From Candidatus Sumerlaeales bacterium (GTDB lineage: Bacteria > Sumerlaeota > Sumerlaeia > Sumerlaeales > Sumerlaeaceae), in contig JBBSQY010000045.1 of the NCBI GenBank assembly GCA_038243585.1, forward strand, positions 1-26,302: DNA of 26,302 nucleotides, given 5' to 3'. Under the pieces are notes generated by a model. It did not search any database. It was not told the DNA's origin and worked only from the letters and a program-made list of their open reading frames with translations. Within the stretch, counting starts at the first letter, position 1; every line of letters begins with the position of its first letter. Both the position numbers and the translations under genes were made by a program. Of the stretch, positions 6,876-25,170 are shown one piece after another.

Positions 6876-6890
6876 ACGGAGACTATTTTG

Positions 6891-7922
6891 ATGAGCACAA
6901 TAGACATAAATGAATTGGACCGCCTGACCAGTGAACTGGCTAGCTTCGCCCGAAGCGGCGTGCCGCTGCCGGAAGGTCTGGCGCAGCTCCACTCCAGCCT
7001 GCCCGGCGGAAAATTGAAAAGCTTGTCAGGAGAGCTTTCCGCCGCCACGGCGCAAGGGCAGCCGCTGTCCGAGGCCCTAAAAAACAGCAGCATCACGGTG
7101 CCAGCTTCATTTGCTGCCCTGGTGCGGTGCGGCGAAATCAGCGGAGACTTGAGTGGCGTGCTTGACTTTGCCCTCAAGCACGGCCGCCGATTGAAAAACC
7201 ACAGAGCTTCAATGATGACAATCCTGATCTATCCGTTGCTGGTCTTAGTTGTCATGGTTGTTATTCTCGCCTTTACCATGATGGTCATTATGCCGCGTTT
7301 TACGGACATTTACGAGCAGCTCGGCGCGCAGCTCCCCGGACCCACGCAGCTGTTAGTCGATGTTTCCGATATGTTTTCACAAGGTTTTGGAATCCTTGTC
7401 GTTCTGGCGTTGCTGGCCGTTGGCGGCTACCTTTTGATCGCCGCAGCTTCCGAGCGGCTGCCGTCGCGGCTTATGGCGTTTCTACCGGGGGTTCGCAGTC
7501 TCGTGTATCTCAGCGACACTTCCATAATGACGGAGTTCGTCGGCCACCTGTTAGGCCGGGGCGTGCCGCTGCCAGAGGCTTGTCGCGCTGCGTCTCTGGT
7601 GGTATATAATGAAGATATGCGGCGGTCGCTGGAGAAAATGGCTGTCGCCTCTGAACAGGGCGGAACCTCTGGAGATGAACTAAACAGCGGGATTCCGGCC
7701 ACAGCGGCCTGGCTTTACCGTCAGGGCGAGGCGCGGGGGACGCTGGCGGACAGCTGCGCCGGCATCGCCCGCTACTGCGAAAATCGGTTTGAGATTGTCA
7801 GCCGACGCACCCTCCATCTGATGGAGCCGATGTTCATTCTTATCATATCGGTATTTTGCGGAGCAATGGTGATAGCGCTCTATTTGCCATTGTTTAATAT
7901 ACCAAAAATCATGGGCCATTGA
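6891..7922 (+). CDS. GspF/PilC-family inner-membrane platform protein, second paralogue
   Basis: LASFARSGVPLPEGL, LVRCGEISGDL, LIYP...MPRFTDIYEQLGAQLPGPTQ, LMEP...ALYLPLF; GGAG upstream (TTG 6888 is an alternative start). Confidence 0.9.
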   Translation: MSTIDINELDRLTSELASFARSGVPLPEGLAQLHSSLPGGKLKSLSGELSAATAQGQPLSEALKNSSITVPASFAALVRCGEISGDLSGVLDFALKHGRRLKNHRASMMTILIYPLLVLVVMVVILAFTMMVIMPRFTDIYEQLGAQLPGPTQLLVDVSDMFSQGFGILVVLALLAVGGYLLIAAASERLPSRLMAFLPGVRSLVYLSDTSIMTEFVGHLLGRGVPLPEACRAASLVVYNEDMRRSLEKMAVASEQGGTSGDELNSGIPATAAWLYRQGEARGTLADSCAGIARYCENRFEIVSRRTLHLMEPMFILIISVFCGAMVIALYLPLFNIPKIMGH

Positions 7923-7923
7923 C

Positions 7924-8544
7924 ATGATTAACCACACAGATAAGAAAGCCAAACCAGCATTCGTAGTCACCTATAAGAACGTAGGATGGGCATTCCTGCC
8001 CGTCTCGCAAATCTGCTTCTCAAGAGCAGGACACACGACAACCCAAACGTTAATGCCGGAAAAGCGGGCATGTATAAATCAAGATCGCCTTCACAGGTTT
8101 AGCGGGCTAAGTAATTTAAGATATTCCAATCAGATCCTGAGTCCATCTAGACGGGCAGGAATGCCCATCCTACGCTCACGGAGCAGGGGTTTGACCCTGG
8201 TAGAGTGCCTCGTGTTTGTAGTTATCTGGAGCAGTGTGAGCATCGCCAGCCTGTGGGCGATTCAGGAAGCGAGCCTGATGCGCGGCAAGGCGAGCCAGCG
8301 GGCGGAGCTAGCGGCTGTGGCGCAGTCGGAGCTGGAACAGGCGCGAGCCCTCCCCGCGGCGGACCTGCGACCCGGGCCGCAGATTCGACCGGCGGCGGAC
8401 TGGTGGCCTGCGGGAACCAGTTGCACGGTTACGCTGACGCCGCAATCACCGGCGGCATGGCTGGTGGACGTGCAAGTGGATCGGGCTACGACGCGCGGGC
8501 TTCGTCCGGTGCGCCTGACTTCGGTACGGAGGGCTGGATTATGA
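7924..8544 (+). CDS. Prepilin-type protein (GspI/PilV-like) with a REP pair in its leader region
   Basis: RSRG|LTLVECLVFVVIW, AVAQSELEQAR; ATG 1 nt after the upstream stop; alternative start ATG 8161 lies inside the right-hand REP. Confidence 0.75.
   Translation: MINHTDKKAKPAFVVTYKNVGWAFLPVSQICFSRAGHTTTQTLMPEKRACINQDRLHRFSGLSNLRYSNQILSPSRRAGMPILRSRSRGLTLVECLVFVVIWSSVSIASLWAIQEASLMRGKASQRAELAAVAQSELEQARALPAADLRPGPQIRPAADWWPAGTSCTVTLTPQSPAAWLVDVQVDRATTRGLRPVRLTSVRRAGL
7980..8174. repeat. Inverted pair of GTAG-type REPs (REPIN-like), 26-bp perfect inverted repeat with 143-bp spacer
   Basis: CGTAGGATGGGCATTCCTGCCCGTCT at 7980-8005 and its exact reverse complement at 8149-8174; each arm is itself a hairpin with a TTCC/GGAA loop. 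Confidence 0.9.
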
Positions 8545-9062
8545 AAACGCGCATCGCTCAGATAAATATCAAATTGGGCTGCCGGGGATTTACCCTGATA
8601 GAGCTCCTCATCGTGGTTGCAATTATCGCCGTTGTCGCCTCCGGAAGTATGGCCGTGATAACGGGTCCCATGTTTGAGCGGGTTCGCGCGGAAGACCAGG
8701 AGGCCTTTGAAGCAGGCGCCGGGGTATTCTTTGCGACGCTCGTGCAGGACGCCCACCGGGCGAAATCCATGGATGTGGATGCCACGGGGACGATAACACT
8801 CGCGGGCGCGCCTGCCACTGCGGGCGGGATCGTCTACGCGGTAAACGACCAGGGGACGTTGACCCGCACCGTCGGCGATAAGCCGGGGGCGAAGCTTGTG
8901 CCTGGCGTGCGAGCTCTGAGGGCGGAAAAACTTTCGACCGGCTCGCTCTGGTCGGTTGGCCTGACGGCAAACATTCGCGGTTACGATGGCAAACCTACGA
9001 CCGTTACCCGGCGCATGGACATACTTGCGGGCGCCAACGCCTGGACCGGAGGCCCCTCATGA
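8541..9062 (+). CDS. Prepilin-type protein (GspJ/PilW-like)
   Basis: Likely start ATG 8541 (GGAGG upstream, ATGA overlap): MKTRIAQINIKLGCRG|FTLIELLIVVAIIAVVASG. Confidence 0.85.
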   Translation: MKTRIAQINIKLGCRGFTLIELLIVVAIIAVVASGSMAVITGPMFERVRAEDQEAFEAGAGVFFATLVQDAHRAKSMDVDATGTITLAGAPATAGGIVYAVNDQGTLTRTVGDKPGAKLVPGVRALRAEKLSTGSLWSVGLTANIRGYDGKPTTVTRRMDILAGANAWTGGPS

Positions 9063-9598
9063 AAACCTGTTGGACAGACATTCCTGTCTGTCACTGTCGT
9101 CGAAGATCTTTTCGTTCGTCAAGTCTTGTAGTATGGGGTGTTGGGACAGACAGGAATGTCCATCCTACTGGGACACGAATTGGATTTTCGTGCAGCCAAA
9201 AGCGCGGGTTTGGCATGTTGGGTCTTTTGTCGCTTATTGCCCTGCTGGCGACGCTTTGCGCTGCGGTATCTATCAGCTCAATGCGGAGCGCCACCGGTAG
9301 CCTGAGGGGGCTGCAACGCCTGCAAACCCAGGCGGCGGCGGAAGGGGCGGCAGTGCTCTTGGCCACGGGAGATGCAGCTTCTTCGGGTACCATAAAGGTG
9401 GGCGACGTTCATGTGTTGATCACGCCGGAAACGACCACCGGCGCCGTTGAGACAACAACCTCACAATCCGTCACCAGCGCAACTGTCAGCCGTCTGGCGG
9501 TTAGCCTCAGGGCCGGCGAGCGGGTGACTTATTCCCGAAATTTCCTGGTACGCTTTGCCCCCGATTCCGGCGCCATCTCCGTGGAGGCTCTCCCATGA
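9059..9598 (+). CDS. Pilin-like protein lacking Glu5 (GspK/PilX-like, small) with a REP pair in its leader
   Basis: GGAGG plus ATGA-coupled start; QKRG|FGMLGLLSLIALLATLCAAV, then LQTQAAAEGA as in PilX/GspK N-terminal helices. Confidence 0.7.
   Translation: MKTCWTDIPVCHCRRRSFRSSSLVVWGVGTDRNVHPTGTRIGFSCSQKRGFGMLGLLSLIALLATLCAAVSISSMRSATGSLRGLQRLQTQAAAEGAAVLLATGDAASSGTIKVGDVHVLITPETTTGAVETTTSQSVTSATVSRLAVSLRAGERVTYSRNFLVRFAPDSGAISVEALP
9069..9168. repeat. Inverted pair of GTAG-type REPs (REPIN-like)
   Basis: GTTGGACAGACATTCCTGTCTGTC (9069-9092) and GACAGACAGGAATGTCCATCCTAC (9145-9168); arms 21/24 complementary; right arm matches the 7981 REP at 21/24. Confidence 0.85.
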
Positions 9599-10425
9599 CC
9601 AGACGTAGGTTTTCTGCATTTACTTTGATCGAGCTGCTCTTCGTGGTAGCGATTATGGCCGTTCTGGCCGCCATCGCCGTACCCAATTTTCTGGAAGCGC
9701 AAACGCGGGTAAAAGTAGCGCGGGTGCATACTGACATGGCTGCCACAACCTTGGCGCTGAATCGCTATTACGCGGATAAGGGCGCTTACCCGCCCAACAC
9801 CACTGAAGCGCGGCGGTACCTCGAAGCCGCCATGCAGAATCCCGTAATGGATTCCGCCCACACCAGCGTGCCGGTTGACGTAAAAATCCCTTGGTGGATA
9901 GCCGACTCAAATATCCTTGAACCAGAAATTGAAGGCATGGGGATGGATTTTACCCCGTCCACTCAAACAGATACCCTGGACGCCCATTTTTTTAAAAGTC
10001 CGGTGATGGACTTTAATTCGGGTCAATTGTCCTTACTCACGACGCCGATCAACTATATTGGCACAGCCGTCTCTCGGGACATATATGCCAGCTCTTACGC
10101 CCGACGCGACAACAGGAGTTTGAACGCCACCGGCTGGTTTGGCTATGTAAACTCCGCAGAACTGTTTGATGACGACTCATTAACAACCGCCTCCCCGGGC
10201 TTGTGGGGCGATCATCTTACCAGCGGAACCTATTTCTATCTGGCTTCGAGCGGCCCTGATACAAGCTATGAAATCTGGCACCCTCTAAGCGGTCCCTTTA
10301 CAGCTTATGACCCCACCAACGGGAGCGTTTCCGGTGGGGATATTTTCCACTTTGAAGGCCGCAGCCCCCGCCTCCAATCCGCCCCGCAAGAAATGCGTCC
10401 AGGTCACCAACGGGAGCACTATTGA
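9595..10425 (+). CDS. GspG-like major (pseudo)pilin-type protein
   Basis: RFSA|FTLIELLFVVAIMAVLAAIAVPNFLEAQTR...ALNRYYADKGAYPP, LTTPINY, SSGPD, YDPTNGSVSGGDI. Confidence 0.88.
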   Translation: MTRRRFSAFTLIELLFVVAIMAVLAAIAVPNFLEAQTRVKVARVHTDMAATTLALNRYYADKGAYPPNTTEARRYLEAAMQNPVMDSAHTSVPVDVKIPWWIADSNILEPEIEGMGMDFTPSTQTDTLDAHFFKSPVMDFNSGQLSLLTTPINYIGTAVSRDIYASSYARRDNRSLNATGWFGYVNSAELFDDDSLTTASPGLWGDHLTSGTYFYLASSGPDTSYEIWHPLSGPFTAYDPTNGSVSGGDIFHFEGRSPRLQSAPQEMRPGHQREHY

Positions 10426-10492
10426 TCCAGGCAAACCACGCTGATCGTGTTTCGACTGCTTTCCCTTAGTTCTCCGCGGTAGTGCGTGGAGT

Positions 10493-11491
10493 TTACCCGT
10501 TATCCCGTGCCCAGGCGAAGGCCCGTTTCACCGTGGCCCATGCCTTTTCCGGGTCGTCCGGTGCGATGTAAGACATATGGCCGCAGCTATGGAACCCCCA
10601 TACGGCGATATCCCGCTGACCTTTTTCCACCATCAGCTTCACCGCGTCCATCATCTCCTCTTCGCGGCCCCCCGGCACCTTGTAGCCTTGCAGCCACATC
10701 TGCGCGGCCAGGCCGTGCTGCTCGGTTACGGTATTGATCAGATCGCAAGCCTCGCCAACAAATTCCGCCATGTCTTTTTTGAAGGCGTACCAGTACGGGT
10801 CGGTGCCAAAAATCTCCAGGTGCGGCACGCCAGCGAGGCGGTCCCAGTTGGCGGTGCTGTGGTCGGCACCCCGCAGCGGCAACACGCACAGGCTGTTGCG
10901 CTTTCCGAGGCTGTGGGCATGGGTGGTCAGGTCGCTCAGAAAGCTGATGATCGACTTCTCTTTAAACTCCCGCACCTCGTCCGTCTCGTCCTGCGGCAAA
11001 GGATTGCCATATTTCGCCTCGAACTGCTCCATACAACACGCGCAACGGCAACCCCAGGTGTCCGGCCTCCCGCCCATCCAGCCGGCCAAGTAAAAGTGCG
11101 GTTCATCCCAGAACATGACGTCCGCGCCGGTCTTTGCGGCGGCGTCTGTCCATTCTTTCATGAACTGGCGGAACGTCGGATTATTTGGGCAGGCCGAGCC
11201 GACCGGCTTGCCGTCGCTCACCATCTGCATGGCGTCCACGTTTTGCATAACAAAATTTGAAAAACTTTCGCCGCCGAAAACCTTGCCTACGCCCCAGGGG
11301 TCAATATGCGCTTCCATCCCGGTGTCATGGGTGATCTGCACCAGTTCGCCGATGGTGTCGTGATAAAACATCCAGTCGTTCTCGTTGAACGTATGGACGA
11401 CATAGGTGCAGCCCATATCCGCCAGCTCCTTCATATCGGTGCGAGCATGGCGGAGAATGCGGTTTCCGAAATATGAACATCCAAGTTTCAT
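10493..11491 (-). CDS. Putative glycoside-hydrolase-like TIM-barrel protein (cytoplasmic)
   Basis: ATG 11491 with GGAG 5 nt upstream; DMKELADMGCTYVV, CPNNPTFR, MFWDEPH, CRCACC...F, GTDPYW resemble clan GH-A/GH42-like barrels; no signal peptide. Confidence 0.6.
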   Translation of the reverse strand: MKLGCSYFGNRILRHARTDMKELADMGCTYVVHTFNENDWMFYHDTIGELVQITHDTGMEAHIDPWGVGKVFGGESFSNFVMQNVDAMQMVSDGKPVGSACPNNPTFRQFMKEWTDAAAKTGADVMFWDEPHFYLAGWMGGRPDTWGCRCACCMEQFEAKYGNPLPQDETDEVREFKEKSIISFLSDLTTHAHSLGKRNSLCVLPLRGADHSTANWDRLAGVPHLEIFGTDPYWYAFKKDMAEFVGEACDLINTVTEQHGLAAQMWLQGYKVPGGREEEMMDAVKLMVEKGQRDIAVWGFHSCGHMSYIAPDDPEKAWATVKRAFAWARDNG

Positions 11492-11628
11492 GAGGGCTCC
11501 GTGGCGATTAGGCTTTGGTGATAGACACAAACAAATGGTTGCAGACCCCCGCACAGGCAAATCAAGAGGAAACCACGCAGGCGAATAATTGCAACCGGGA
11601 AACCGTAATTCGCCGTGTTAGCACGGGC

Positions 11629-11705
11629 GGGCGATTAGCTCAGCTGGTTAGAGTGCCGGCCTCACATGCCGGAGGTCCGCGGTTCGATCCCGCGATCGCC
11701 CACCA
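11629..11705 (+). tRNA. tRNA-Val (anticodon CAC)
   Basis: Acceptor stem GGGCGAT/ATCGCCC plus ACCA; D arm AGCTCAGCTGGTTAGAGT; anticodon arm CCGGC-CTCACAT-GCCGG; T arm CGCGG-TTCGATC-CCGCG. Confidence 0.97.
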
Positions 11706-11712
11706 TTAAAAA

Positions 11713-11739
11713 TCACCGTTCCATTGCGCAATGACGTGA
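11713..11739. terminator. Imperfect hairpin between the convergent tRNA and secretin genes (possible terminator or collapsed palindromic repeat)
   Basis: TCAC..CGT..CATTGC/GCAATG.ACG.TGA; no U-tract. Confidence 0.25.
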
Positions 11740-14250
11740 CTATTGTTTGATTGGTGCCCCTGGCGCGGATGGAGGGGCTGCGGCAGGCGGTGCTGCTGCT
11801 GCCGCTTTGGCTGCCGCTTTGGCTGCCGCTGCGGCTTGTGCTGCTTGTGCCGCGGCTGCTTGTGCTGCTGCCGCAGCTGCTGGGGTGTTGTTTGCTCCCG
11901 GCGGAGATTTTAGATTCCTGCTTCCGGTACTTAACATTCCACTAGGGCCAGACGTACCAACCAGGGAGGCCAGCGTGTCAGTGGATGCTTCTTCTTTCAG
12001 CGTGACCCTCGGTAACGCCCTCATGCCAGCGGACGGAACAGCGGAAATCGGCTGATACGAATCTACGTCTCCAACCGTTGAGTCATCGATGTTGACGGTA
12101 GCGTTGATGCCGCCGAGAGATGGCGTGTTGGCGTCGGAATCGCGCATGGGAGAAAGTAAAACACTGCCGTCTTCAGCCGTGGTACGGCTCATGGAGGAAA
12201 AATCCGGGGCGGGCGGAGGAGTGTAGGAGAGATAGTCTCCCTTTTCCAGCTGCGGCAAATTGCTCAAGCCGTCGCTGCGCGTTGGAAGGTCCGTCAGGGT
12301 TGCGGTAGGCGTCGTCAGAGGCTCCTGGGGCAGGTCGGCCATCAGGGCGCCTTTATATTTGATTGTGTCGCTAGGATTCTCTTCTACGATCGTCGGAGTC
12401 ACGAAAATCAGGAGATTGCGACGGCGGTTATCTTCCGGGGCTTTTGTATAGCCGCCAAACAGAGCGGGGCCGATGATCGGGATCTTCATCAGGCCGGGGA
12501 TTCCGGTTTTAGTTTCCGATTTACTGTCGGCGACGAGGCCGCCGATAACCCGCGTTGATCCGCTGGGCACCCACATGGTCGTGTTCAGTTCCTGGTTGGT
12601 TTTACCCACGCCGGTATAAGCAAGGCCACCGAAGGTCTGCTCCACGCGGAGCGGGGAACTGTTCTCCACTGTTATCTCAAGTTCCACCATTCCGTTGCCG
12701 GATATAATGGGAACAACTTCAAGAAACAGACCGACCTGCAGAAGCTGCTGCACAGGCTGAGAAGGCGTCAGGTTGTTCTGATTTCCGTTTTGGCTGACAC
12801 CGATAGAGCCACCGGTAAAAAACGGCACGCTCTGCCCAACGTCGAAAGTGGCCGTCTTTTGATTTTCCACCAGCAGACGAGGCTGTTGCAACACCCGCGT
12901 TCGCGAGTCGCTCATGGCCGTAGACAGTTTGACGAAAGCGTGACGCGACAGCATACTTGCGTTGAGGCCTCTTGACCCTGCCTCCACCACGGGGAATTCT
13001 TTCCGGAAATTGATGAAGCCTTCCGAACCTTCGGTTACGCCGCCATCAGCTCCAGTGGCATTTCCGGTTGGAATGCCGCTCACCAGGCCGTCTGTGACTG
13101 CGCTGAGAAGATCTCCGGAAAAGGCATAATCTATCTGCCAGTTAAATCCTTCGGTAAACTCGGTTTCGATGATTTCAAGCTGGAGAAGAATCTGGCGCAC
13201 GGGAGCGTCAAACGCGGCAAGCACCTGTTCCACGCGCTCGTGGACTTCCGGCAGATCTCGCACGATGAGCTTGCCCTGCCGAATGTTGAAGTGGAAATAG
13301 GCCTCCGGGGTCAGAATCTCCTCGATAGCGATTTCCAGCTCTTCCAGTTCTTCGCCCTCCACGCCCAGGTTGTTGATCGTATAGACGCGCATTTCCGGGC
13401 CAATATCCAGGGTTTCGACCAGTTGCTCCATCTTCTGGAGCACGTCGATACGGTCGGATACGATGATCTGGCGCGTGCGCTCATCAACCTGCACATCGGG
13501 GGACGCAGGACTTTTCAGAGCCGACAGCTTTTCCGCCACTTCGTTCACGTCGGCGTGTTCAATGTAATAGACGCGGGTCAGGAATTTGACGTCGATGGTT
13601 TCGAGAAGACGCTGGGCCAGTTCAAGAACCGGCACAAGGTCGGTCATGATGACTTTATTAGAGCGCTGATCCGCCGCGACCCGTCCGATGCCGGGTGTCA
13701 TTATGCCTTCAAGGGCCTTCGCGGCTTCTTCGGCGGTGATTTCCTTAGGCAGGAACACTTTTGGCCGGACCAGGCGCGGCAACACTTCGGCCTTATAGGT
13801 TTCCTGATCCCAGATTTCATAAGTCCCTGGACGATCTGGTGGAGGATACAGAATCCAGTTCGGCTGGCTGTTGACAATTTTGTTTAGAACATCGGCCAAA
13901 GGCTCTGGCTGGGGCGATATCAAAGTAATTTTAGTGCCGACGGTTTTACCCCGGGCCGAAATGACTGTTTTCGCCTGATCGCTGAGCTGACCCAATACGC
14001 GCTCGATAGGTAGATTGCTGGCGACAACGCTGACGTTTCCCGGAGTGCCAGGCGTCGTCGTAGCCGACGCGCTGGTGGTAGCGCTTGCAGTGGCTGGGGC
14101 GTCATCCTGCGCATAGCCGGCACAGCTCATGGCCGCCAGCGCAAGAATGGCAAATGCTCGGGCAGAATAGCCAAACGGGCTACGGGACGCCGAGCTAAAG
14201 CTGAAGGGGAGGACGCCTACGCGTCTGACATATAGCAAAGTTCTCTTCAT
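11740..14250 (-). CDS. gspD: Outer-membrane secretin (GspD/PilQ family) with a long low-complexity C-terminal tail
   Basis: Sec signal ending AGYA|QDD; N-domain repeats (DQRSNKVIMTD, DERTRQIIVSD); DAPVRQILLQLEIIE, QPRLLVENQKTATFDVG, VIGGL...GIPGLMKIPIIG, LLIFVTPTIV; AGAGGAG RBS. Confidence 0.92.
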   Translation of the reverse strand: MKRTLLYVRRVGVLPFSFSSASRSPFGYSARAFAILALAAMSCAGYAQDDAPATASATTSASATTTPGTPGNVSVVASNLPIERVLGQLSDQAKTVISARGKTVGTKITLISPQPEPLADVLNKIVNSQPNWILYPPPDRPGTYEIWDQETYKAEVLPRLVRPKVFLPKEITAEEAAKALEGIMTPGIGRVAADQRSNKVIMTDLVPVLELAQRLLETIDVKFLTRVYYIEHADVNEVAEKLSALKSPASPDVQVDERTRQIIVSDRIDVLQKMEQLVETLDIGPEMRVYTINNLGVEGEELEELEIAIEEILTPEAYFHFNIRQGKLIVRDLPEVHERVEQVLAAFDAPVRQILLQLEIIETEFTEGFNWQIDYAFSGDLLSAVTDGLVSGIPTGNATGADGGVTEGSEGFINFRKEFPVVEAGSRGLNASMLSRHAFVKLSTAMSDSRTRVLQQPRLLVENQKTATFDVGQSVPFFTGGSIGVSQNGNQNNLTPSQPVQQLLQVGLFLEVVPIISGNGMVELEITVENSSPLRVEQTFGGLAYTGVGKTNQELNTTMWVPSGSTRVIGGLVADSKSETKTGIPGLMKIPIIGPALFGGYTKAPEDNRRRNLLIFVTPTIVEENPSDTIKYKGALMADLPQEPLTTPTATLTDLPTRSDGLSNLPQLEKGDYLSYTPPPAPDFSSMSRTTAEDGSVLLSPMRDSDANTPSLGGINATVNIDDSTVGDVDSYQPISAVPSAGMRALPRVTLKEEASTDTLASLVGTSGPSGMLSTGSRNLKSPPGANNTPAAAAAAQAAAAQAAQAAAAAKAAAKAAAAAPPAAAPPSAPGAPIKQ

Positions 14251-14327
14251 TTCTCCTCTAGTGCCCCTTTGCTGCGATATGCGGGAACCTGTTGTCCAGC
14301 AATTTTGTCAGTCATTGTCGGATTTCC

Positions 14328-14996
14328 TTATTTCTTAGGCGCTGGGGCCGGAGCGGCAGTGGCGGGTTCAGTGTCCAGGTTAATATTTCGTTCCGCGGTA
14401 GTGTCTTCCATGCCCAGGGTTATTTCCGGGCTGTAAGGGTTCTCGTTGTTAATGGTCTTTAGAGAAACGGTTTTCATGATGCCATTGCCGACATCCACCT
14501 GTTTGGTGTCTCCAACGGCCATTTCCCAGATGGCACCTTCGGCACCCTGCTGAGACAGCTGCACATCCTCAAGCATCGCCTTGCCCTGGTATACGCTCAA
14601 CAGCTTCCATCCGCCAAGGGATTTCCCTATGTCAGGGGTCGGCGGCGGCGGCGGAGGGGTAGGCGTTGGGGTCGGCGTAGGGGTGAGCAGTGCGCGAAAA
14701 ATGCTTTTCTTACCAAAATCTCCGCCACGGGAAGAGCCTGCCGAGGCATACTGGGTTTCAGTTCCGGGCATGCTTATGGTGCTGGTGGTATCAGACGAGT
14801 CTGAGATTTCAGAACCGTCGAACTGTTCAGATGGGTCAGACTTATCGGACCTGTTCGAACCTGCAGGGCTAATCGCCGCTGGCACTTCAAGTTCGTCCAG
14901 CCCTCGCGGCAGATCGCGAGATTCATAAATCAGGAAAACCAGAACCCCAATAATGACCAGCAGCGTAAGATTAAGTAGAAATTCCTGTCGTTTCAT
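14328..14996 (-). CDS. Bitopic membrane protein with Ser-rich and Pro/Thr linker; positional GspC/PilP analogue
   Basis: N-terminal TM helix, PTPTPTPTPPPPPPTP linker, small beta domain (WKLLSVYQGKAMLED) resembling GspC-HR/PilP; TGATG coupling; lies between the M-like gene and the secretin. Confidence 0.65.
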   Translation of the reverse strand: MKRQEFLLNLTLLVIIGVLVFLIYESRDLPRGLDELEVPAAISPAGSNRSDKSDPSEQFDGSEISDSSDTTSTISMPGTETQYASAGSSRGGDFGKKSIFRALLTPTPTPTPTPPPPPPTPDIGKSLGGWKLLSVYQGKAMLEDVQLSQQGAEGAIWEMAVGDTKQVDVGNGIMKTVSLKTINNENPYSPEITLGMEDTTAERNINLDTEPATAAPAPAPKK

Positions 14997-15595
14997 CAGC
15001 GTGCGCCTCCTCTGTTCAGCTTGAGCGAACCTGCTTCAGGCGCCGCATCTTCTGATTCTTCTTCGGGGATCTTCACGATGCGTCCAAGGTTCAGTTCCAC
15101 CGTCAGTTCGTTTTTGTCCAGGTCGGAATCTCGCGTAATGGTTGCCGTCTGGGTAAGGTAGCCTTTGCTGTCAAATTCCTTGAGCAGCGCTGCCACCTTT
15201 TCCAGGTTGGACTTTACTGTGAGAGGTAGAATCAGAAACTCATAACCAGTCGCACCTTTAATTTCGGCGGTGATGGGCGGCGAATAGCTGGGAACGGTGC
15301 CGACAGTATCAACTACAAGGTCCACTACCTCTTCGTTAAAGACTTCGCTGGGATCGCGATCCGGGTCGTCCTGCGGGAATTGCGCTTCTACCCGGGCATA
15401 GCCCTGGTCGATGGACTTGGCCTCAGCCAGGGTCTCCTGGTTTTCCAAATATTTTTCCCGCTCGCTGATCAGAGTCGCGTTCAGGTCCTCGTAGCTCTGC
15501 CATACCGGCTCAATTCCGAAGCTCCATACGACAAACGCGAGCACCAGGCCGAGCGTTATTGTGAGGGTGCGCTGGTCGCGCTTATTCAATGCCAT
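14996..15595 (-). CDS. PilO/GspM-like assembly platform protein
   Basis: LNKRDQR + TM helix + EP + coiled coil, then ferredoxin-like LPLTVKSNLEKVAALLKEFD. Confidence 0.8.
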   Translation of the reverse strand: MALNKRDQRTLTITLGLVLAFVVWSFGIEPVWQSYEDLNATLISEREKYLENQETLAEAKSIDQGYARVEAQFPQDDPDRDPSEVFNEEVVDLVVDTVGTVPSYSPPITAEIKGATGYEFLILPLTVKSNLEKVAALLKEFDSKGYLTQTATITRDSDLDKNELTVELNLGRIVKIPEEESEDAAPEAGSLKLNRGGAR

Positions 15596-17381
15596 CTAGA
15601 TCGCCCTCTTTCTGCTTGCTACCCGGGGCGGGGCGCGAGGATTTTGGTTTTGGTTTTACTGGCTTGGGGAAGGTGAAAGTTGCGGCCCATCCCAACACTG
15701 GAATCTGCGGACGCCCACGCAACTGCTTGTTCGGCACCGTGTTATCCAGCCTGGCATCTTCAAAAAATCCGGTATTGCGCAGATCATTGACCAGCTGATT
15801 GGCCGTCTGCAAGTCCGTCGCGTCCCCTTGCAGCTTAACAAAATCGCCTCGTTTGTAATCGAAGCTGGTCAGAGCCACCTGATCCGGAAAGTAATCTTTC
15901 TCGCTAAGGATCCGCAGCACATCAATGGCACCGCGGTCATCCTGAACATTGTCCCGGATAATGCGCAGACGATCCTTCTTTGTGCGAAGGTCCTTCACCC
16001 TGCCTTGGTCCGCGCGGTTTTGGATCTCAATTTGATCCAACAGTGCCCGTTTTCTGGAGAAAGCATCGGACAAAAACATATAACCAGCGACCAGGGCCGC
16101 GAGGGCCAGAACGCCGGTAACTACGTAAGAAACCTGCTGGCGCTTGGCCGACCGTGCCTCCGTGTAGCTTCCCGGCAGCAGATTAATGTGGATCGTGTGC
16201 GGACGGCGACCAACCGCGCCGCCTATGGCCACTGCATACTGCTGTCCCGGTGCCTCGCTGTTCTTCAGCACCTTGCGAGCAACTTCCGCCCCGCTCAGCG
16301 GATCAAATACCGCAGCGGTCACATGAAAGTTGGCTTCAAAATAATCCGCCACGCGTTTGATCACAGCCCCTTCACCGCACAAATAGATGTGGTTGATCAT
16401 AGGGCAGTTAAACTCGCGGCTGGCGAACTCATAGGTCCGGCGAACTTCCTGCAAAAGCTTGTTGAGCCAGTCGCTGAAAATCACTGCCGGCTTGTTTTCC
16501 GGCGCTGCGGCCGCGGACGGCGCTGGCACCGCTTCAAAGATGAGAGGAGGCGCGGGGCGGGCGTAGCGAGCGTCTAGTGCAGCCTGCTCATCCTCCTGGC
16601 CCGGCAGCTCGTCATAGATTCCCGGGGCCACAGACGGCGGCTCCGGGGTTTCGCCTTTAAAGTAAAGCTGCGGCTCCAGCGCGTCCATTTCCGACAGGTC
16701 GCTGATCGTTACCGGCTGGCCCATGGCTTCCGTCAGATCAGTCATGAGGCGAGAGACCCCGGTGGTGCTGCCGCGGGTGAAGTTTACGTTGCCGTTGGTC
16801 GCGATAACCAGGTCCGTTGCGTTTTTACCGATGTTCAGCACCAATACGGTGCGGTCGGCCAGGGCAGTTTTCTCCGTGGCGGCAAACGCGTTGAACATGG
16901 CAATGCTTGAGACAGTGATCGACGTGACGGTTAGCCCCGCCTTAACGCATATATCCAGGTATTCCTTTGCGATGGGCTGGTCCACTGCGGCCAAAAGCAC
17001 ATCGCTGCCCTGCATCCCCTGCCGCGCGAGCACGTGGTACGATACAATATGACGATCGGCATTGAACGGAATGTGGCGGTCCGCCTCAAACCTTGCCATT
17101 CCGGCAATTTCATCGTCAACCGTGCTGGGAAGCGTTACGCTTCGCGCCATGACATAGCTTTTAGGAATGACTACGACGGCGGTTTTAATGGCAATGCGCT
17201 GCGACCTCAGGTGGTCGCGAAGGGCCTGCGTACGTTCAGCGGCGCGGACGACAAGATCTTCCGGACGGGGGAGCACAAAGCTCGAAACGGATTTGACGGC
17301 GATGCGTCCGTTTTTCGCTGGCTCGGCAACGATCACCTTGCATTCGAGATCGGTAAATTCAATGGAGAGATGTGCGGCCAT
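15582..17381 (-). CDS. PilM-PilN fusion (GspL-equivalent)
   Basis: Actin-like PilM motifs (EADRHIPF, DVLLAAV, VLNIGKNATDL, IYLCGEGA, AVAIGGA), then the PilN motif INLLP, TM helix, coiled coil and periplasmic domain. Confidence 0.85.
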   Translation of the reverse strand: MAAHLSIEFTDLECKVIVAEPAKNGRIAVKSVSSFVLPRPEDLVVRAAERTQALRDHLRSQRIAIKTAVVVIPKSYVMARSVTLPSTVDDEIAGMARFEADRHIPFNADRHIVSYHVLARQGMQGSDVLLAAVDQPIAKEYLDICVKAGLTVTSITVSSIAMFNAFAATEKTALADRTVLVLNIGKNATDLVIATNGNVNFTRGSTTGVSRLMTDLTEAMGQPVTISDLSEMDALEPQLYFKGETPEPPSVAPGIYDELPGQEDEQAALDARYARPAPPLIFEAVPAPSAAAAPENKPAVIFSDWLNKLLQEVRRTYEFASREFNCPMINHIYLCGEGAVIKRVADYFEANFHVTAAVFDPLSGAEVARKVLKNSEAPGQQYAVAIGGAVGRRPHTIHINLLPGSYTEARSAKRQQVSYVVTGVLALAALVAGYMFLSDAFSRKRALLDQIEIQNRADQGRVKDLRTKKDRLRIIRDNVQDDRGAIDVLRILSEKDYFPDQVALTSFDYKRGDFVKLQGDATDLQTANQLVNDLRNTGFFEDARLDNTVPNKQLRGRPQIPVLGWAATFTFPKPVKPKPKSSRPAPGSKQKEGDLDGIE

Positions 17382-17578
17382 TATAGAGACTTCTCACTGG
17401 GAAAACTTTTTACAGGCATAATATCCTCTGGGATGCACCGGTTGTCTAACCGTAGGCGAAACAATGCCGTGGTACCGATACGGGTTTTGGCGGAAAACTG
17501 CCTGGAGCCGCGCGTTTTGATTTTGTCTGCTTTAACTCTTAATCTGTCGTTCATATTTTTTGATTCAATCATAGTCAT
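17381..17578 (-). CDS. Candidate small basic protein (65 aa), translationally coupled at both ends
   Basis: ATG overlaps the gspK stop (ATGA) and its TAA overlaps the pilMN start (TAATG); exactly fills the gap; no recognisable homology. Confidence 0.35.
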   Translation of the reverse strand: MTMIESKNMNDRLRVKADKIKTRGSRQFSAKTRIGTTALFRLRLDNRCIPEDIMPVKSFPSEKSL

Positions 17579-19002
17579 TCTATCCATTGGAGAACCCGTA
17601 TGGCTGGTATTCTAATGTAATTATCGTCCGGACGTCCAGTGTCATTGCCCTTGCTACGGCTACGGCTACGGCTTTTCGGTTCTCTGCGCTTGTTGTCAAG
17701 GCCTCTTCCTTTGTTCGACGCCAGCGCGGCGTCATCCGGGTTATACACTTCCAGTTGCCGCACCACCACGGCTTCCACCGTCTGCTCTGCTCTTCGGGTG
17801 GTGCCAATGCCGATAATGCGAAAAGTTTTCGAGCTAAACGTGGGCTGAATCCCGAGAGACGCCAACTGACCCAGTGCGGCTGTATCCACTCCCGGAACCT
17901 GCGCAATATCTTTCATGCTTTTAAACGCTGTTTCCGGGTCCGGAGCCCGGTTGTCATTGTCTCCGCGGAAGTCCGCAATAGATTCCGCTGCGGCCTTTGC
18001 CTGTTCAATGGAAGCAAAATCCGTCGCCGCGTGGATCAGGATGGTAAGCACCTCAATGGGTGCCGTGTTTAGGTTAATGCGTCCGTTTCCGCCTTCCGGC
18101 GATACGGTTATGATATCCTTCATGGGGAGAGCTTCGCTTTTCCGGCCACGCGTCCGCTCCCGCTTGGCCCGAACCCGCCTCCCGGATGCTATGGCGTCCC
18201 GAACCGACATCTCGTCTTTTTCCTTCTTCTCCGGATCATAACCCAGAAAGAGTTCTGGGAACTGCGAAACGCCATAGACGTCAAGCAGTTGATCAGTCGT
18301 CAAAAATTGTTCGTTGGGGGTTCGATACATTAACTGATCCGCGGCCATATCCGGCTTCACACGTTGACCGAGCTCGGCGCTGTAGTACTCGTTTTCATAA
18401 GCGCCCGGCTCTCCGCCGGCCATGTCATCCTGGTCTCGATAATCAACAACGGCATAGGCTATGTCATCGGAATCCGGAGCTTCAAATCCGTAATACTCCA
18501 TCATTGCCTTGATGACTTTAAAATTGGCGTGGTTGAGGGGGATTTTGCTTTCTTCATCAACAATCTTCACTTCATAGGTGCGGTCCGGATGAAGCTTCTT
18601 ATCCGGCTGCACCACCCGTTCTTTGTCAGAAAGATCCCGCATGGCCCACACGTCACTGAAAGCGTCATAGGGCTGGTTCGGGTTCTCTTCATAGTCGATA
18701 ATCATGTCGTTTTGCAGGTGTGTGATTCCAACCGATACGGCGCTCTTGGCCAGGTTATATGCATTAAACTGCTCTTTTTGAAGCAGCGCCAGTTTCGAGC
18801 TGACCTGCACGTCAAACGCCAGCGACGAGGCGATTATCCCCAACACAACGACAATCCAGAGGGTCAACACCAGCACCACGGCGCGGCGGCGCTGGGGATA
18901 GCGAGTCTGCCCTCCGCGCATCCATCTGCCCACGCCCGCCAGCAACCGCACGGTAGCCGCGTCCGCTGCACTGCGAGCTCTCATTTTCCGATGTGCTTTC
19001 AT
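17575..19002 (-). CDS. gspK: Type II secretion minor pseudopilin GspK
   Basis: RRRA|VVLVLTLWIVVVLGIIA (no E5), IVDEESKIPLN, AVVDYRDQDD, PNEQFLTTDQLLDVYG, GRINLNTAPIEVL, FSSKTFRIIGIG. Confidence 0.9.
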   Translation of the reverse strand: MKAHRKMRARSAADAATVRLLAGVGRWMRGGQTRYPQRRRAVVLVLTLWIVVVLGIIASSLAFDVQVSSKLALLQKEQFNAYNLAKSAVSVGITHLQNDMIIDYEENPNQPYDAFSDVWAMRDLSDKERVVQPDKKLHPDRTYEVKIVDEESKIPLNHANFKVIKAMMEYYGFEAPDSDDIAYAVVDYRDQDDMAGGEPGAYENEYYSAELGQRVKPDMAADQLMYRTPNEQFLTTDQLLDVYGVSQFPELFLGYDPEKKEKDEMSVRDAIASGRRVRAKRERTRGRKSEALPMKDIITVSPEGGNGRINLNTAPIEVLTILIHAATDFASIEQAKAAAESIADFRGDNDNRAPDPETAFKSMKDIAQVPGVDTAALGQLASLGIQPTFSSKTFRIIGIGTTRRAEQTVEAVVVRQLEVYNPDDAALASNKGRGLDNKRREPKSRSRSRSKGNDTGRPDDNYIRIPAIRVLQWIE

Positions 19003-20060
19003 CGGTTGCCTCCAGTCGAACTGCCGGCGGAGCTTTTGGAACTCTTGCCGGAAGACCCGCCCTTGTCGCGATTTTTACGACGGGAATTAGCGCGAGCCCC
19101 CTTCAGTTCGTCGTCCTCGTCGTTCGGCACATAAGTTTCCATGGCGTATTTATTGTTCATGACAATGGTCTGGCGATAGATTTGCGCGCCGTCGGGATTA
19201 TCCATGTCGGTGGCGAATTTAAACGTAACCTCGAGCCAGCCCGGCAGATTATCAGCCCGGCTTTGCTGCGCCTGCTGCTGCACCTGACCAGAAAGCGAGG
19301 CCGCCGCGCCAGTGTTAACGACATCCTGCGACGCGTTCTCACCCATCGTGCCGACGATATCGTCATCCTCTTCCTCTGGGGGATTGCGATATTCTGAAGC
19401 GTTGCTGTCCCAAGATTCTGCCAGCAGCCAGTCCTCTTCAAAATAATATCCATACTTCACGTCGAAACCAACGCAGTTTTCCGCCAGTTTGTCAATAGTC
19501 GGCAGCGTTGTTTTGGGAATCACGTTCCCATCTTCGTCGGTTTCCGGCTTTGTAATGTCGTCCACGGCACGGTACAGACTGTTATCTACCACATAATAGG
19601 TGATACGGCCAAGGCCCCAAAGCGGGCGCGACTCATCCAGTGAGAAACCCATATAGCGCACAAACGAAAGCTGATCAGTTCCTGAATTGTCCTCACCAGA
19701 AAAGGAAAGATCAATGGGCGGCCCGAGATCAGGCAGGTTTTCGTCGACAACGTCCCGGCCAGACGCCGTTTGTAGATTTGTCTCATTCGCGCTCGTCTCG
19801 GCTTCCTGCTGACGCCGCGCTACGTTGTACTCCGATTCCGGCTTGTAGTAAATATTATGGAGGTCTTGAGCCAGCTTATTGACCGCGAACCGGCCCAGCT
19901 GCTGCTGCGAAGCGTGCTCTGTGCCCATGGTGTAGGCCTTCATGCCGGTACGAAAGGCCGCGAACAGCGCCGTCATCATAATGGAAAAGATGACCATAGC
20001 CACCATGATTTCGATAAGGGTGAAGGCGCGCGTAGTCCGCGACGGATGAAGGCGCTCCAT
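18999..20060 (-). CDS. GspJ-like minor pseudopilin
   Basis: TRA|FTLIEIMVAMVIFSIMM, LAQDLHN, ITYYV...LYR, LPGWLEVTF; lies directly before gspK. Confidence 0.85.
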   Translation of the reverse strand: MERLHPSRTTRAFTLIEIMVAMVIFSIMMTALFAAFRTGMKAYTMGTEHASQQQLGRFAVNKLAQDLHNIYYKPESEYNVARRQQEAETSANETNLQTASGRDVVDENLPDLGPPIDLSFSGEDNSGTDQLSFVRYMGFSLDESRPLWGLGRITYYVVDNSLYRAVDDITKPETDEDGNVIPKTTLPTIDKLAENCVGFDVKYGYYFEEDWLLAESWDSNASEYRNPPEEEDDDIVGTMGENASQDVVNTGAAASLSGQVQQQAQQSRADNLPGWLEVTFKFATDMDNPDGAQIYRQTIVMNNKYAMETYVPNDEDDELKGARANSRRKNRDKGGSSGKSSKSSAGSSTGGNR

Positions 20061-20572
20061 CAGATCCCCTCCTCTTCGCTGAACAATTCGTTTCGGAGCT
20101 TCGATTCATAGCTGAACCGCTCCAGCGGGGCGAGGATCAGAAAGGCGTCAGCGGGGTGCGTAACCCGGCCGCGCGGATCGTTATAGGTTATGGACAGGTT
20201 CACAGCCTGTAATTCGCGCAGATTCTGCGGACGCGTCTCTGTTTTTAAGCGATATTTCAGTTTCTCTTTGCTGCTTACCACGTCGTACGAGTAGCGAGGG
20301 AAGCCATCGCTTTCGAAATCACCGCTGGACTTGCCCTTGCCCGGAGGCTCAGCCTCCATTGACTGGAGCGCCGTCTCCGCCAGCACAGTCGCGACGGTAG
20401 TAGAGTCGTTCTTTCGGATGGCAGACAGCGACAGCGTAAATGAGCGCATCATGGTTGCGATGGATATCCCCAGAATAACCATGGCGACAATTACCTCAAG
20501 CAGCACAAACCCGGACGCGGGGGAGCGTCGGGGTGGGAGCACCCTGAATTTTGTCATCCCGGAGCCCGCCAT
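20060..20572 (-). CDS. GspI-like minor pseudopilin
   Basis: ASG|FVLLEVIVAMVILGISI, ATVLAETAL, SGDF...PRYSY; lies between the H- and J-like genes. Confidence 0.85.
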   Translation of the reverse strand: MAGSGMTKFRVLPPRRSPASGFVLLEVIVAMVILGISIATMMRSFTLSLSAIRKNDSTTVATVLAETALQSMEAEPPGKGKSSGDFESDGFPRYSYDVVSSKEKLKYRLKTETRPQNLRELQAVNLSITYNDPRGRVTHPADAFLILAPLERFSYESKLRNELFSEEEGI

Positions 20573-21285
20573 TACCTGTCCGCCTCTGCGGCTACGTAGG
20601 CGTTGTTATAATTCGGTGGGAGGGGATAGTTGACCGATCCACGTTCCGCCGCTACGGTTTCCAGATCACCTTTATTAAGTTCCACCATCCCCGTAGACTT
20701 CAATACTTCCAGCGTAAACACCGACGGGGTGCCGTTAGTAAACGAAATAAAGCCCGGCGACGCAGTCCCGTCGGGATAAAAGTCAAACGCGATTATGCCG
20801 TTTTTGAGGATGTTGTCCTCCAGCGCGTTCACTTCCATAAATTCCACCCGCGTATCCAGGTCCCGCTTACGCTCCATATTGGTTTTTGGCTTTTTAGGAT
20901 CATAACGCCCGGTTTTTTCATCCGGCGTACGCAGGTCCATCCAGAACTGGTGCTTCTTCGTATCCAGAAAGAGCTGGGTGGTGCGGCCATTAAAAACCGC
21001 TTCCGTGCGGGCATACTTCATTAACGTCGTCACCTGGCGTACCGATGAACGCAACCGGTTACCTTCCGCCGTGGAACGCATTGACGGAATCATAACCGTA
21101 AACATAATGGCCACAATGATTACCACGACAATGATCTCAATCATCGTGAACCCGCGATTCCCAGCCAGTGTAGGAACGGCTCGCCGAGCCGTCCGCAAAC
21201 TCCGGGTAGGGATGGCTCGCCGAGCCGTCCGCAAACTGCTCCCAGACGTTAAACCGTATCCGCTATGGCGATGATTAAAAAACAA
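20572..21285 (-). CDS. GspH/FimT-like minor pseudopilin with REP-derived leader
   Basis: NRG|FTMIEIIVVVIIVAIM, LMKYARTEAV, FDFYPDGTA; TTG start 3 nt after the gspF stop. Confidence 0.85.
   Translation of the reverse strand: MFFNHRHSGYGLTSGSSLRTARRAIPTRSLRTARRAVPTLAGNRGFTMIEIIVVVIIVAIMFTVMIPSMRSTAEGNRLRSSVRQVTTLMKYARTEAVFNGRTTQLFLDTKKHQFWMDLRTPDEKTGRYDPKKPKTNMERKRDLDTRVEFMEVNALEDNILKNGIIAFDFYPDGTASPGFISFTNGTPSVFTLEVLKSTGMVELNKGDLETVAAERGSVNYPLPPNYNNAYVAAEADR
21170..21237 (+). repeat. Tandem GTAG-type REP palindromes (36-nt period) inside the GspH-like leader
   Basis: GTAGGAACGGCTCGCCGAGCCGTCCGCAAACT at 21170 and GTAGGGATGGCTCGCCGAGCCGTCCGCAAACT at 21206; same family as 5024/5066. Confidence 0.88.
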
Positions 21286-24680: not shown

Positions 24681-25170
24681 TAATCCAATCAGTTGGCCAC
24701 AAAAATCCACATCAGCACACGACAAAATCCAACCCCCAAACTCCAGGTCACAAATTAACACACCCATGAAGCATCATAAACCACCCAAGCATCACAAAAT
24801 AACAGTGCATCCACTAGATCCAGCCTCCTCTTTCGTACCACTATAGCCAGACATCGCACAGCCCATAGCATGTCGGTCCCAATGCAGGCACAACTGCTTG
24901 TACGCACAAAGAAAAACGACATAACTTTCACTTTTTTCTTGCGGGAAGCACAAAGGTTGGGCAGGTTAACGCTCAAATTGGGTCATAATACGTTTAAAAA
25001 ACGGTCAGATCGTCTCCATTAGACGACGTAAACGGGCCAAGAGGAACTGAAAAAGAATGAACACCACAGGCAGCAGGGACATCTTGGAAACGACATCAGG
25101 CGGCGCGGCGAACGCGACGGACGTTGCAAAAATTTATGGGGCGCAAAGCCCCGAACTAGGGGGCAACACA

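What the first reader, a model, noticed from the sequence alone, without database searches (positions are those of the whole stretch)
7924..21285. REP palindromes repeatedly sit in frame inside the disposable leader peptides of prepilins
Seen: three prepilin genes (7924-8544, 9059-9598, 20572-21285) carry GTAG-type palindromes of two sequence families between the start codon and the G|F/L cleavage site. The frame stays open, giving leaders of about 89, 50 and 44 aa. I found no such element in any mature pilin domain. Established: REPs are normally extragenic, and class III leaders are cytoplasmic, variable and removed by prepilin peptidase; translated palindromic inserts are known from Rickettsia RPEs. 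Inference: in these gap-free, translationally coupled operons the cleaved leader acts as a safe harbour for REPs. The hairpins just downstream of coupled starts could also tune minor-pilin stoichiometry or mRNA stability.
Basis: partly seen in the sequence, partly recalled or inferred. Interest (0 to 1): 0.8.

Follow-up and report, generated by a model that had tools for sequence, protein, structure and literature searches.

The report
REP repeats inside pilin leader peptides
Small palindromic repeats have landed, in frame, in the removable front ends of three pilin-like genes of one bacterium; such repeats are already known to survive inside genes, and this is a new setting for that habit.

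Summary
Two GTAG-type REP families (about 46 and 85 copies genome-wide) lie at the stated coordinates. They sit between the first in-frame start and the Gly(-1) cleavage site of three pilin-like genes, and the frames stay open for 89, 50 and 45 codons.

Relatives show that the REPs lie inside the ancestral leader-coding sequence, not upstream of it. They keep the same coupled start positions and have REP-free leaders of 6-38 residues. In genes 2 and 3, ancestral leader residues still flank the inserts in frame.

The leader is not a special refuge. The same REPs sit in frame in DnaE, MutS, CysRS, ArgRS and a sugar epimerase.

In-frame intragenic GTAG REPs, most numerous in a verrucomicrobium, were described by Di Nocera et al. 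in 2013. That paper also warns about N-terminal cases.

Enrichment in pilin leaders is suggestive: 3 of 45 against 8 of 2538. All three cases lie on one contig, though.

Translation of the long leaders is inferred, not shown. No REP-flanked RAYT was found. A regulatory role is untested.

The parts
7924..8544 (+). Gene 1, a GspI-like minor pilin-like gene. Leader codons 1-89 (7924-8190), then a Gly(-1)/Leu(+1)...Glu(+5) site.
   Evidence: ORF. Mature part aligns with orthologues in G008 and G005 (A1) and with P0003-P0006 (A3). No Pfam or NCBIfam hit.
7974..8009 (+). F1 REP, left arm of the inverted pair in gene 1's leader.
   Evidence: E 6.8e-11. Core 7981-8004 matches the family consensus exactly.
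8144..8179 (-). F1 REP, right arm. It contains an in-frame ATG at 8161, an alternative start that would give a 10-residue leader.
   Evidence: The ATG is buried in the predicted 29-bp helix. SD score -6.0 at spacing 0.
9059..9598 (+). Gene 2, a pilin-like gene without Glu(+5). Leader codons 1-50 (9059-9208). The start overlaps the upstream stop.
   Evidence: The SD plus overlapping start is conserved in G008 and G005. 11 homologues are aligned in A4.
9066..9094 (+). F1-variant REP, left arm, beginning 7 nt after the start codon of gene 2.
   Evidence: E 0.013, 3 mismatches.
9141..9171 (-). F1-variant REP, right arm, in gene 2's leader.
   Evidence: E 1.9e-7.
20572..21285 (-). Gene 3, a GspH-like minor pseudopilin. 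Leader codons 1-45 (21285-21151) from a TTG 3 nt after the GspF stop.
   Evidence: PF12019 and PF07963. TIGR02532 and GspH models. Alignment A5.
21168..21237 (+). Two tandem F2 REPs with a 36-nt period, antisense to gene 3 and read in an Arg-rich frame.
5018..5098 (+). Two tandem F2 REPs with a 42-nt period, in frame inside the T2SS/T4P ATPase (4030-5358), between the two CxxC pairs.
   Evidence: Orthologues in G008 and G005 have a loop 17-20 residues shorter.
8541..9062 (+). Neighbouring prepilin without a REP (16-residue leader). It serves as an internal control for coupled starts.
   Evidence: N_methyl hit. SD -10.0.
21289..22500 (-). GspF-like gene whose stop lies 3 nt before gene 3's first in-frame start.
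6888..7922 (+). GspF-like gene whose stop lies 1 nt before gene 1's first in-frame start.

Best explanation
Recent insertions of two GTAG-type REP families landed within the first codons of three pilin-like genes that sit in gap-free secretion and pilus operons. Each gene keeps its ancestral start, which is coupled to the stop of the gene before it. The inserts are in phase and free of stops. Each gene therefore now encodes a pre-protein whose cytoplasmic N-terminal leader is lengthened from roughly 10-25 residues to 45-89 by REP-derived residues.

The leader lies on the cytoplasmic side. In genes 1 and 3 it is presumably cut off by the prepilin peptidase, so the extra residues cost little and the insertions were not purged.

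This is one local outcome of a genome-wide filter. REPs that hit coding DNA survive only in phase, in stop-free frames and at permissive sites such as loops, linkers, tails and signal sequences.

Shown: positions, frames, repeat families, REP-free orthologous sites and conserved start contexts. Inferred: translation from the upstream starts, cleavage, and neutrality.
For: Gene 2. (1) An SD (-9.5 kcal/mol) plus a start codon overlapping the upstream stop is conserved in G008 and G005. (2) Nine of 11 homologues have called leaders of 6-17 residues, and none of the 11 carries the insert. (3) In alignment A4 the window's leader equals such a leader split by two in-phase inserts of 11 and 23 codons.

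Gene 3. (1) The residues encoded upstream of the REPs align with an N-terminal motif shared by P0021, P0026, P0029 and P0034. (2) The REP tandem fills a gap in the alignment (A5). (3) Nine orthologous loci start 0-60 nt after the GspF stop, with leaders of 12-19 residues and no REP.

Gene 1. (1) In G008 the start lies 2 nt after the GspF-like stop, against 1 nt here, with an 11-residue leader. (2) Between the REP and Gly(-1) there is no ATG, GTG or TTG in genes 1 and 3, so REP-derived codons are translated under any canonical start. (3) The alternative ATG at 8161 is buried in a 29-bp helix.

Chance. All inserts are in phase and open: 0.047 x 0.36 x 0.46 for openness, and 1/81 to 1/243 for phase over 4-5 events.

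In-frame survival elsewhere. MutS and the ATPase carry the REP as extra residues absent from orthologues. Pfam domains flank copies in DnaE, ArgRS, CysRS and the epimerase.

A prepilin peptidase gene is present.
Against: No expression data exist.

F2 was not found in any of 40 relatives, including two of the same genus. The inserts are therefore young, and an upstream frame could still be open simply for lack of time to decay.

The starts at 7924 and 21285 have no SD (-2.4 and -2.5). The REPs themselves offer in-frame starts (ATG 8161; TTGs at 21234 and 21198, scoring -6.5 and -6.1) that would give leaders of normal length: 10, 28 or 16 residues.

The other pilin-like genes of this genome have short upstream regions, mostly 8-30 codons.

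The collection's own gene call for gene 3 is 190 residues, starting at a Met inside the mature N-terminus (P0020).

F2 tandem spacings are multiples of three in 15 of 21 cases, also outside long ORFs. This weakens the phase argument for tandem copies.

The origin of the 135-nt spacer in gene 1 is unexplained. The DNA of the closest homologues (P0003, P0004) could not be obtained.
Confidence: 0.65

Rival explanations
1. The REPs now lie in untranslated 5' regions. The insertions cut off the old starts, and translation begins at codons supplied by the REP (ATG 8161 in gene 1; a TTG in gene 3) or downstream of it (ATG 9215 in gene 2). The upstream open frames are leftovers.
For: In-REP starts give leaders of 10 and 16-28 residues, like those of relatives. 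There is no SD at 7924 or 21285. The inserts are young. Di Nocera et al. 2013 (passages read) judged many N-terminal REPs extragenic for this reason. Two of 11 gene 2 homologues and the own call of gene 3 were called from downstream Mets.
Against: Gene 2's ATG 9215 has no SD (-3.3). Starting there would remove Gly(-1) and all positive charges ahead of the membrane segment, while 9059 keeps a conserved SD and the stop overlap. ATG 8161 lies in a 29-bp helix with its SD-like bases directly abutting it. This reading does not explain why every insert is in phase and stop-free. Even so, REP-derived codons would still encode part of the leader in genes 1 and 3.
Confidence: 0.25
2. The REP hairpins are kept by selection as RNA elements. 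They would act as attenuators of coupled translation, processing sites or stabilisers that set the dose of minor pilins. Being translated would be a side effect of gap-free operons.
For: Gene 1's pair is predicted to form a 29-bp helix (-92.4 kcal/mol, z -5.3, 0 of 200 shuffles as stable). The contig holds 8 of 131 copies against 1.0 expected. REPs are known RNA-level modulators in other bacteria (abstract and passages of PMC3733652).
Against: The folds of genes 2 and 3 are no better than shuffles (z 0.05 and -1.15). The inserts are absent from all relatives examined, so there is no conservation to show selection. A scan of one genome per 185,579 species for the F2 core 5-35 nt before a canonical prepilin site gave 4 hits; the one I read (L197) was no REP, and none came from the groups that carry F2. 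Counted as 4 loci, the local excess has P about 0.008 per window, which is expected about once per genome.
Confidence: 0.1
3. The insertions disabled the genes, and the operons are decaying.
For: The leaders are abnormally long. The plus-strand operon was not found in the two same-genus genomes.
Against: All ORFs of both operons are intact and tightly coupled. The mature parts are 77-83% identical to the closest homologues, with no frameshifts.
Confidence: 0.05

Closest known systems
Intragenic GTAG-tagged REPs (Di Nocera, De Gregorio and Rocco 2013, BMC Genomics 14:522, PMC3733652; abstract, passages and a term search of supplements read)
   Same: Short GTAG-headed palindromes. They are mostly extragenic, but some sit in frame inside genes for replication, repair and tRNA synthetases, often as dimers or tandems, and are most numerous in a verrucomicrobium. 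N-terminal cases are noted as frequent and ambiguous.
   Different: The paper's list of decorated ORFs holds no pilin, pilus or methylation-motif protein (term search). Here orthologues place the inserts between a conserved coupled start and a class III cleavage site.
Rickettsia palindromic elements (RPEs)
   Same: Palindromic repeats inserted in frame into functional genes at permissive sites. According to PMC3733652 (passage), N-terminally decorated proteins are expressed in vivo.
   Different: Different repeat families and hosts. RPEs are CGTC-type or longer. No link to cleaved signal sequences has been described (recalled; the searches found none).
REPINs and REPtrons (REP doublets mobilised by RAYT transposases)
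   Same: F1 occurs as 12 head-out inverted pairs (24 of 46 copies). The genome has four Y1-transposase genes.
   Different: Spacers vary from 45 to 135 nt and are not conserved between pairs. No Y1 gene has F1 or F2 copies within 3 kb, apart from one with an F1 pair about 2 kb away.
Long-leader (type IVb-like) prepilins
   Same: A class III signal with a leader longer than the usual 6-8 residues, still processed by the same peptidase family (recalled knowledge).
   Different: Recalled type IVb leaders are about 15-30 residues and are not repeat-derived. Here the leaders are 45-89 codons, of which 20-24 are REP-derived.

Membership tests
GTAG-type REP | Short (20-40 nt) imperfect palindrome able to form a stem-loop | tested here: met
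   The copies contain a stem and loop.
GTAG-type REP | Conserved terminal GTAG tetranucleotide | tested here: met
   Nearly all of the 88 hits start with it.
GTAG-type REP | Many dispersed copies, mostly extragenic | tested here: met
   46 F1 plus 85 F2 copies on many contigs. 95 of 131 lie outside ORFs of 150 aa or more, although such ORFs cover 88% of the genome.
GTAG-type REP | Cognate RAYT gene flanked by the REPs (REPtron) | tested here: inconclusive
   Four PF01797/IS200-type genes. None has F1 or F2 within 3 kb except one F1 pair about 2 kb away. The assembly is a 99-contig draft that breaks at repeats.
REPIN | Two inverted REPs with a short conserved spacer, replicated as a unit | tested here: not met
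   12 inverted pairs, but spacers are 45-135 nt and only the arms are conserved. One pair shares 54 nt.
RPE-like translated palindromic insert | Lies in frame in an intact ORF of a recognisable protein family | tested here: met
   DnaE, MutS, ArgRS, CysRS, epimerase, GT2 and the T2SS ATPase.
RPE-like translated palindromic insert | Orthologues lack the insert (empty site) | tested here: met
   MutS and the ATPase are longer than their orthologues. The leaders of genes 1-3 are longer. In CysRS the REP replaces a linker of equal length rather than adding to it.
RPE-like translated palindromic insert | Insert present in the protein | not testable with these tools
   Needs proteomics or ribosome profiling.
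Class III (prepilin) signal peptide | Gly or Ala at -1, hydrophobic segment, Glu at +5 | tested here: met
   Genes 1 and 3 have them. Gene 2 and all 11 of its homologues lack Glu(+5), so this feature is not met for gene 2.
Class III (prepilin) signal peptide | Match to the N-terminal methylation motif models | tested here: inconclusive
   Gene 3: PF07963 at 21.7 bits (cut-off 21.2) and TIGR02532 at 24.6 bits (cut-off 16.3). Genes 1 and 2: no hit.
Class III (prepilin) signal peptide | Short basic leader | tested here: not met
   45-89 codons from the first start, against 6-38 in homologues. Basic residues precede Gly(-1) in all three.
Class III (prepilin) signal peptide | Prepilin peptidase in the genome, and cleavage | tested here: inconclusive
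   A PF01478 gene lies on contig C5 (44.9 bits). Cleavage itself is not testable here.

The most novel reading that the evidence does not exclude
Cleaved or cytoplasmic N-terminal signal segments may be preferred refuges for REPs in operons with no intergenic space. These segments include class III leaders and perhaps lipoprotein and Sec signal n-regions. This would yield the longest prepilin leaders yet seen (up to 89 residues). The reading frame of the REP would be sorted by context: Arg-rich frames in signal n-regions and Gly/Ser/Pro-rich frames in protein loops. The hairpins just after coupled starts may additionally throttle reinitiation and so set minor-pilin dose.
Probability: 0.2. Interest if true: 0.65.

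Novelty: new variant of a known kind. Interest (0 to 1): 0.45.

Why it matters
If the long leaders are made and removed, prepilin peptidases accept leaders far longer than those studied, and signal sequences act as buffers that absorb mobile-element insertions.

There is also a practical lesson for annotation. Start calls at REP-bearing 5' ends are unreliable. The collection's own call for gene 3 begins inside the mature N-terminus.

For REP biology the genome is a clean young case. One family is absent from 40 relatives, yet its core is shared with distant PVC-group genomes, and it already sits in frame in essential genes.

Tried and rejected
1. REP-flanked RAYT: not found.

2. Conserved MITE-like interior of F1 pairs: rejected, because only the arms are shared.

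3. A wider rule. I scanned one genome per 185,579 species for the F2 core 5-35 nt before a canonical prepilin site. It gave 4 hits; the one I read (L197) is not a REP, and none is from the PVC groups that carry F2. Longer distances and F1 were not scanned.

4. Naming the organism from relatives of CysRS: uninformative. I call it PVC-like only by inference, from Verru_Chthon-type hits and from where the F2 core occurs.

5. DNA of the closest gene 1 homologues (P0003, P0004), wanted for a synonymous/non-synonymous test: not obtained.

The leader similarities therefore rest on MAFFT alignments A3-A5, without a significance figure.

7. Earlier notes of this scan: none fitted.

8. Structure, complex and atlas tools: not used, because they do not bear on start-site choice.

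9. The local excess of REPs on this contig: judged compatible with chance when counted as 4 loci.
Full report
WHAT THE WINDOW HOLDS

The window is a whole 26.3-kb contig of a 3.43-Mb draft genome in 99 contigs. It carries two secretion or pilus operons.

The plus-strand operon (4030-10425) has an ATPase, two GspF-like genes and four pilin-like genes.

The minus-strand operon is T2SS-like (24382 down to 11740). It has GspE, GspF, GspH-, I-, J- and K-like genes, a PilM/N fusion, an M-like gene and a secretin.

THE OBSERVATION

It is correct. One repeat family, which I call F1 (24-nt core at 7981-8004), forms an inverted pair at 7974-8009 and 8144-8179. A variant pair lies at 9066-9094 and 9141-9171. 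A second family, F2 (29-nt core at 21206-21234), forms a 36-nt-period tandem at 21168-21237.

All copies lie between the first in-frame start and the Gly(-1) codon of genes 7924-8544, 9059-9598 and 20572-21285. No stop intervenes. The nominal leaders are 89, 50 and 45 codons.

Both families are real repeats:
- 88 hits at up to 4 mismatches.
- 46 F1 and 85 F2 copies by nhmmer at E<=0.1.
- Zero hits for reversed-pattern controls.

They behave as REPs:
- They are GTAG-headed.
- They are palindromic.
- They are strongly depleted from coding DNA. Only 36 of 131 lie inside ORFs of 150 aa or more, although such ORFs cover 88% of the genome.
- F1 occurs as 12 head-out inverted pairs and 22 singles. 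Spacers are 45-135 nt and unrelated to each other.

ARE THE REPS INSIDE THE LEADER OR UPSTREAM OF THE TRUE START?

Relatives answer this better than the sequence alone.

Gene 2. The start codon overlaps the stop of the preceding pilin gene and is preceded by a strong Shine-Dalgarno site (-9.5 kcal/mol). The same arrangement is present in the orthologous operons of G008 and G005. Eleven homologues at 49-69% identity were found. Nine have called leaders of 6-17 residues ending in Gly, and two were called from a downstream Met. In alignment A4 the window's leader is such a leader interrupted by two inserts of 11 and 23 codons. Ancestral residues are retained in frame before, between and after them. 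The only downstream alternative, ATG 9215, has no SD. It would also delete Gly(-1) and every positive charge ahead of the membrane segment.

Gene 3. Nine orthologous loci start 0-60 nt after the GspF stop, with leaders of 12-19 residues and no REP. At least 15 of the 23 database homologues have called leaders of 11-23 residues. In alignment A5 the residues encoded upstream of the REP tandem align with an N-terminal motif shared by several homologues, and the tandem occupies a gap.

Gene 1. In G008 the orthologue starts 2 nt after the GspF-like stop, against 1 nt here, and has an 11-residue leader. Two closer homologues at 82-83% identity are called with 38-residue leaders.

In genes 1 and 3 there is no ATG, GTG or TTG between the last REP and Gly(-1). 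REP-derived codons are therefore translated whichever canonical start is used.

STATISTICS AND THEIR LIMITS

With the non-REP parts shuffled, the three frames stay open with probability 0.047, 0.36 and 0.46. Four to five independent in-phase inserts have a chance of 1/81 to 1/243.

Three things weaken this:
- The finding was selected because the frames are open.
- F2 is absent from all 40 relatives searched, including two of the same genus, so the inserts are young and decay may simply not have begun.
- F2 tandem spacings are multiples of three in 15 of 21 cases, even outside long ORFs.

Also on the contrary side:
- The starts at 7924 and 21285 lack an SD.
- The REPs offer in-frame starts that would give leaders of ordinary length.
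- The collection's own gene call for gene 3 begins at a Met inside the mature N-terminus.

Against the in-REP start of gene 1, the ATG at 8161 lies within a predicted 29-bp helix (-92.4 kcal/mol, z -5.3).

THE WIDER PICTURE CHANGES THE INTERPRETATION

The same REPs sit in frame in ordinary genes:
- DnaE, twice.
- MutS.
- ArgRS and CysRS.
- A UDP-GlcNAc 2-epimerase.
- A glycosyltransferase.
- The ATPase of the plus-strand operon in this window. Two F2 copies lie at 5018-5098 between the two CxxC pairs, making the loop 17-20 residues longer than in G008 and G005.

MutS likewise carries extra residues relative to same-genus orthologues. In CysRS the REP occupies a linker of unchanged length.

By my count, 15 copies lie deep in ORFs. 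All use three Gly/Ser/Pro-rich frames. The two Arg-rich frames occur only at N-termini, including gene 3's leader. The chance of this is below 0.001 (one search gives 7.8e-4 for 14 copies).

The leader is therefore one permissive site among several, not a unique harbour.

ENRICHMENT

Three of 45 pilin-like genes carry a REP in the first 100 codons, against 8 of 2538 other gene proxies (odds ratio 22.6, p 7e-4). Gene 1 had to be added by hand, because the greedy proxy set dropped it.

The three lie on one contig. Counted as four loci, the contig's excess has P about 0.008, which is roughly what one window per genome would show by chance.

A scan of one genome per 185,579 species for the F2 core 5-35 nt before a canonical prepilin site found 4 hits. 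The one I read (L197) is not a REP, and none is from the groups that carry F2.

WHAT IS KNOWN

Di Nocera et al. 2013 (PMC3733652) describe GTAG REPs located inside genes. I read the abstract and passages and ran a term search of the supplements. According to the paper:
- They are most numerous in Opitutus terrae.
- They are often in replication and repair genes and in tRNA synthetases.
- They are often dimers or tandems encoding 20-30 residues.
- Many N-terminal cases may be extragenic.

Its supplementary list returned no hit for pilin, pilus or methylation. Two full-text searches found nothing on REPs in prepilin leaders or signal peptides.

The general phenomenon is thus known. The setting inside class III leaders, backed by orthologous empty sites, appears to be new.

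OTHER CHECKS

Four IS200/Y1-type transposase genes exist, but none is flanked by F1 or F2. The draft state of the assembly leaves this open.

A prepilin peptidase gene is present.

The exact 22-nt F2 core occurs in many Verrucomicrobiota, Kiritimatiellales/Pontiellaceae and Lentisphaerae assemblies, although the nearest relatives lack it. This points to horizontal spread or rapid turnover.

VERDICT

The 'in frame inside the leader-coding segment' reading is well supported for gene 2, and supported for genes 3 and 1. Translation of the full long leaders is probable but unproven (0.65). The 'safe harbour' idea is only partly supported. The regulatory idea is untested. The finding is a new variant of a known kind and of moderate interest.

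Noticed in passing
window 5018-5098 (in ATPase gene 4030-5358): Two F2 REPs with a 42-nt period lie in frame between the two CxxC pairs of the T2SS/T4P ATPase. The loop is 17-20 residues longer than in the G008 and G005 orthologues.
   Followed up: yes
genome-wide, e.g. G000:C26:3853-3976, C28:12855-12962, C20:9345-9461: Spacing of same-strand F2 neighbours is a multiple of three in 15 of 21 cases (binomial P 4e-4), including arrays outside any long ORF. No explanation yet.
   Followed up: partly
genome-wide F2 copies: By my count, 15 copies deep inside ORFs use only the three Gly/Ser/Pro-rich frames. The two Arg-rich frames appear only at N-termini: gene 3's leader, an unnamed ORF on C3, and a weak copy in a signal-peptide n-region on C8.
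   Followed up: partly
public genomes, loci L088-L167: The exact 22-nt F2 core is present in many Verrucomicrobiota, Kiritimatiellales/Pontiellaceae and Lentisphaerae assemblies. At up to 2 mismatches it is absent from all 40 nearest relatives, while F1 is found only in G002. This suggests horizontal spread or fast turnover.
   Followed up: partly
G000:C60:8341-8370 (ORF 7267-8484, minus strand; locus L045): An F1 REP lies in the predicted lipoprotein-type signal sequence of an NMT1-like binding protein. Its internal ATG is a possible start, which parallels gene 1.
   Followed up: partly
window 20572-21141: The protein collection's own call for gene 3 is 190 aa, starting at a Met two residues into the mature pilin N-terminus. 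Automated start calls at REP-bearing 5' ends are unreliable.
   Followed up: yes
window 8010-8143: The 135-nt spacer between gene 1's REP arms is AT-richer than its surroundings and has no counterpart in other F1 pairs. It contains what look by eye like promoter hexamers. Its origin is unexplained.
   Followed up: no
window 11629-11705: A tRNA-Val (anticodon CAC) lies between the two operons.
   Followed up: yes
window 25782-25970 and 26073-26261: A 189-nt direct repeat (85% identical) lies inside the open-ended ORF 25057-26301. It is probably a repeated protein domain.
   Followed up: no
G000:C39:9991-10022 (CysRS, locus L041): Here the REP-encoded stretch replaces a linker of the same length as in orthologues rather than adding residues. 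Either an insertion was accompanied by a deletion, or the linker was converted.
   Followed up: partly
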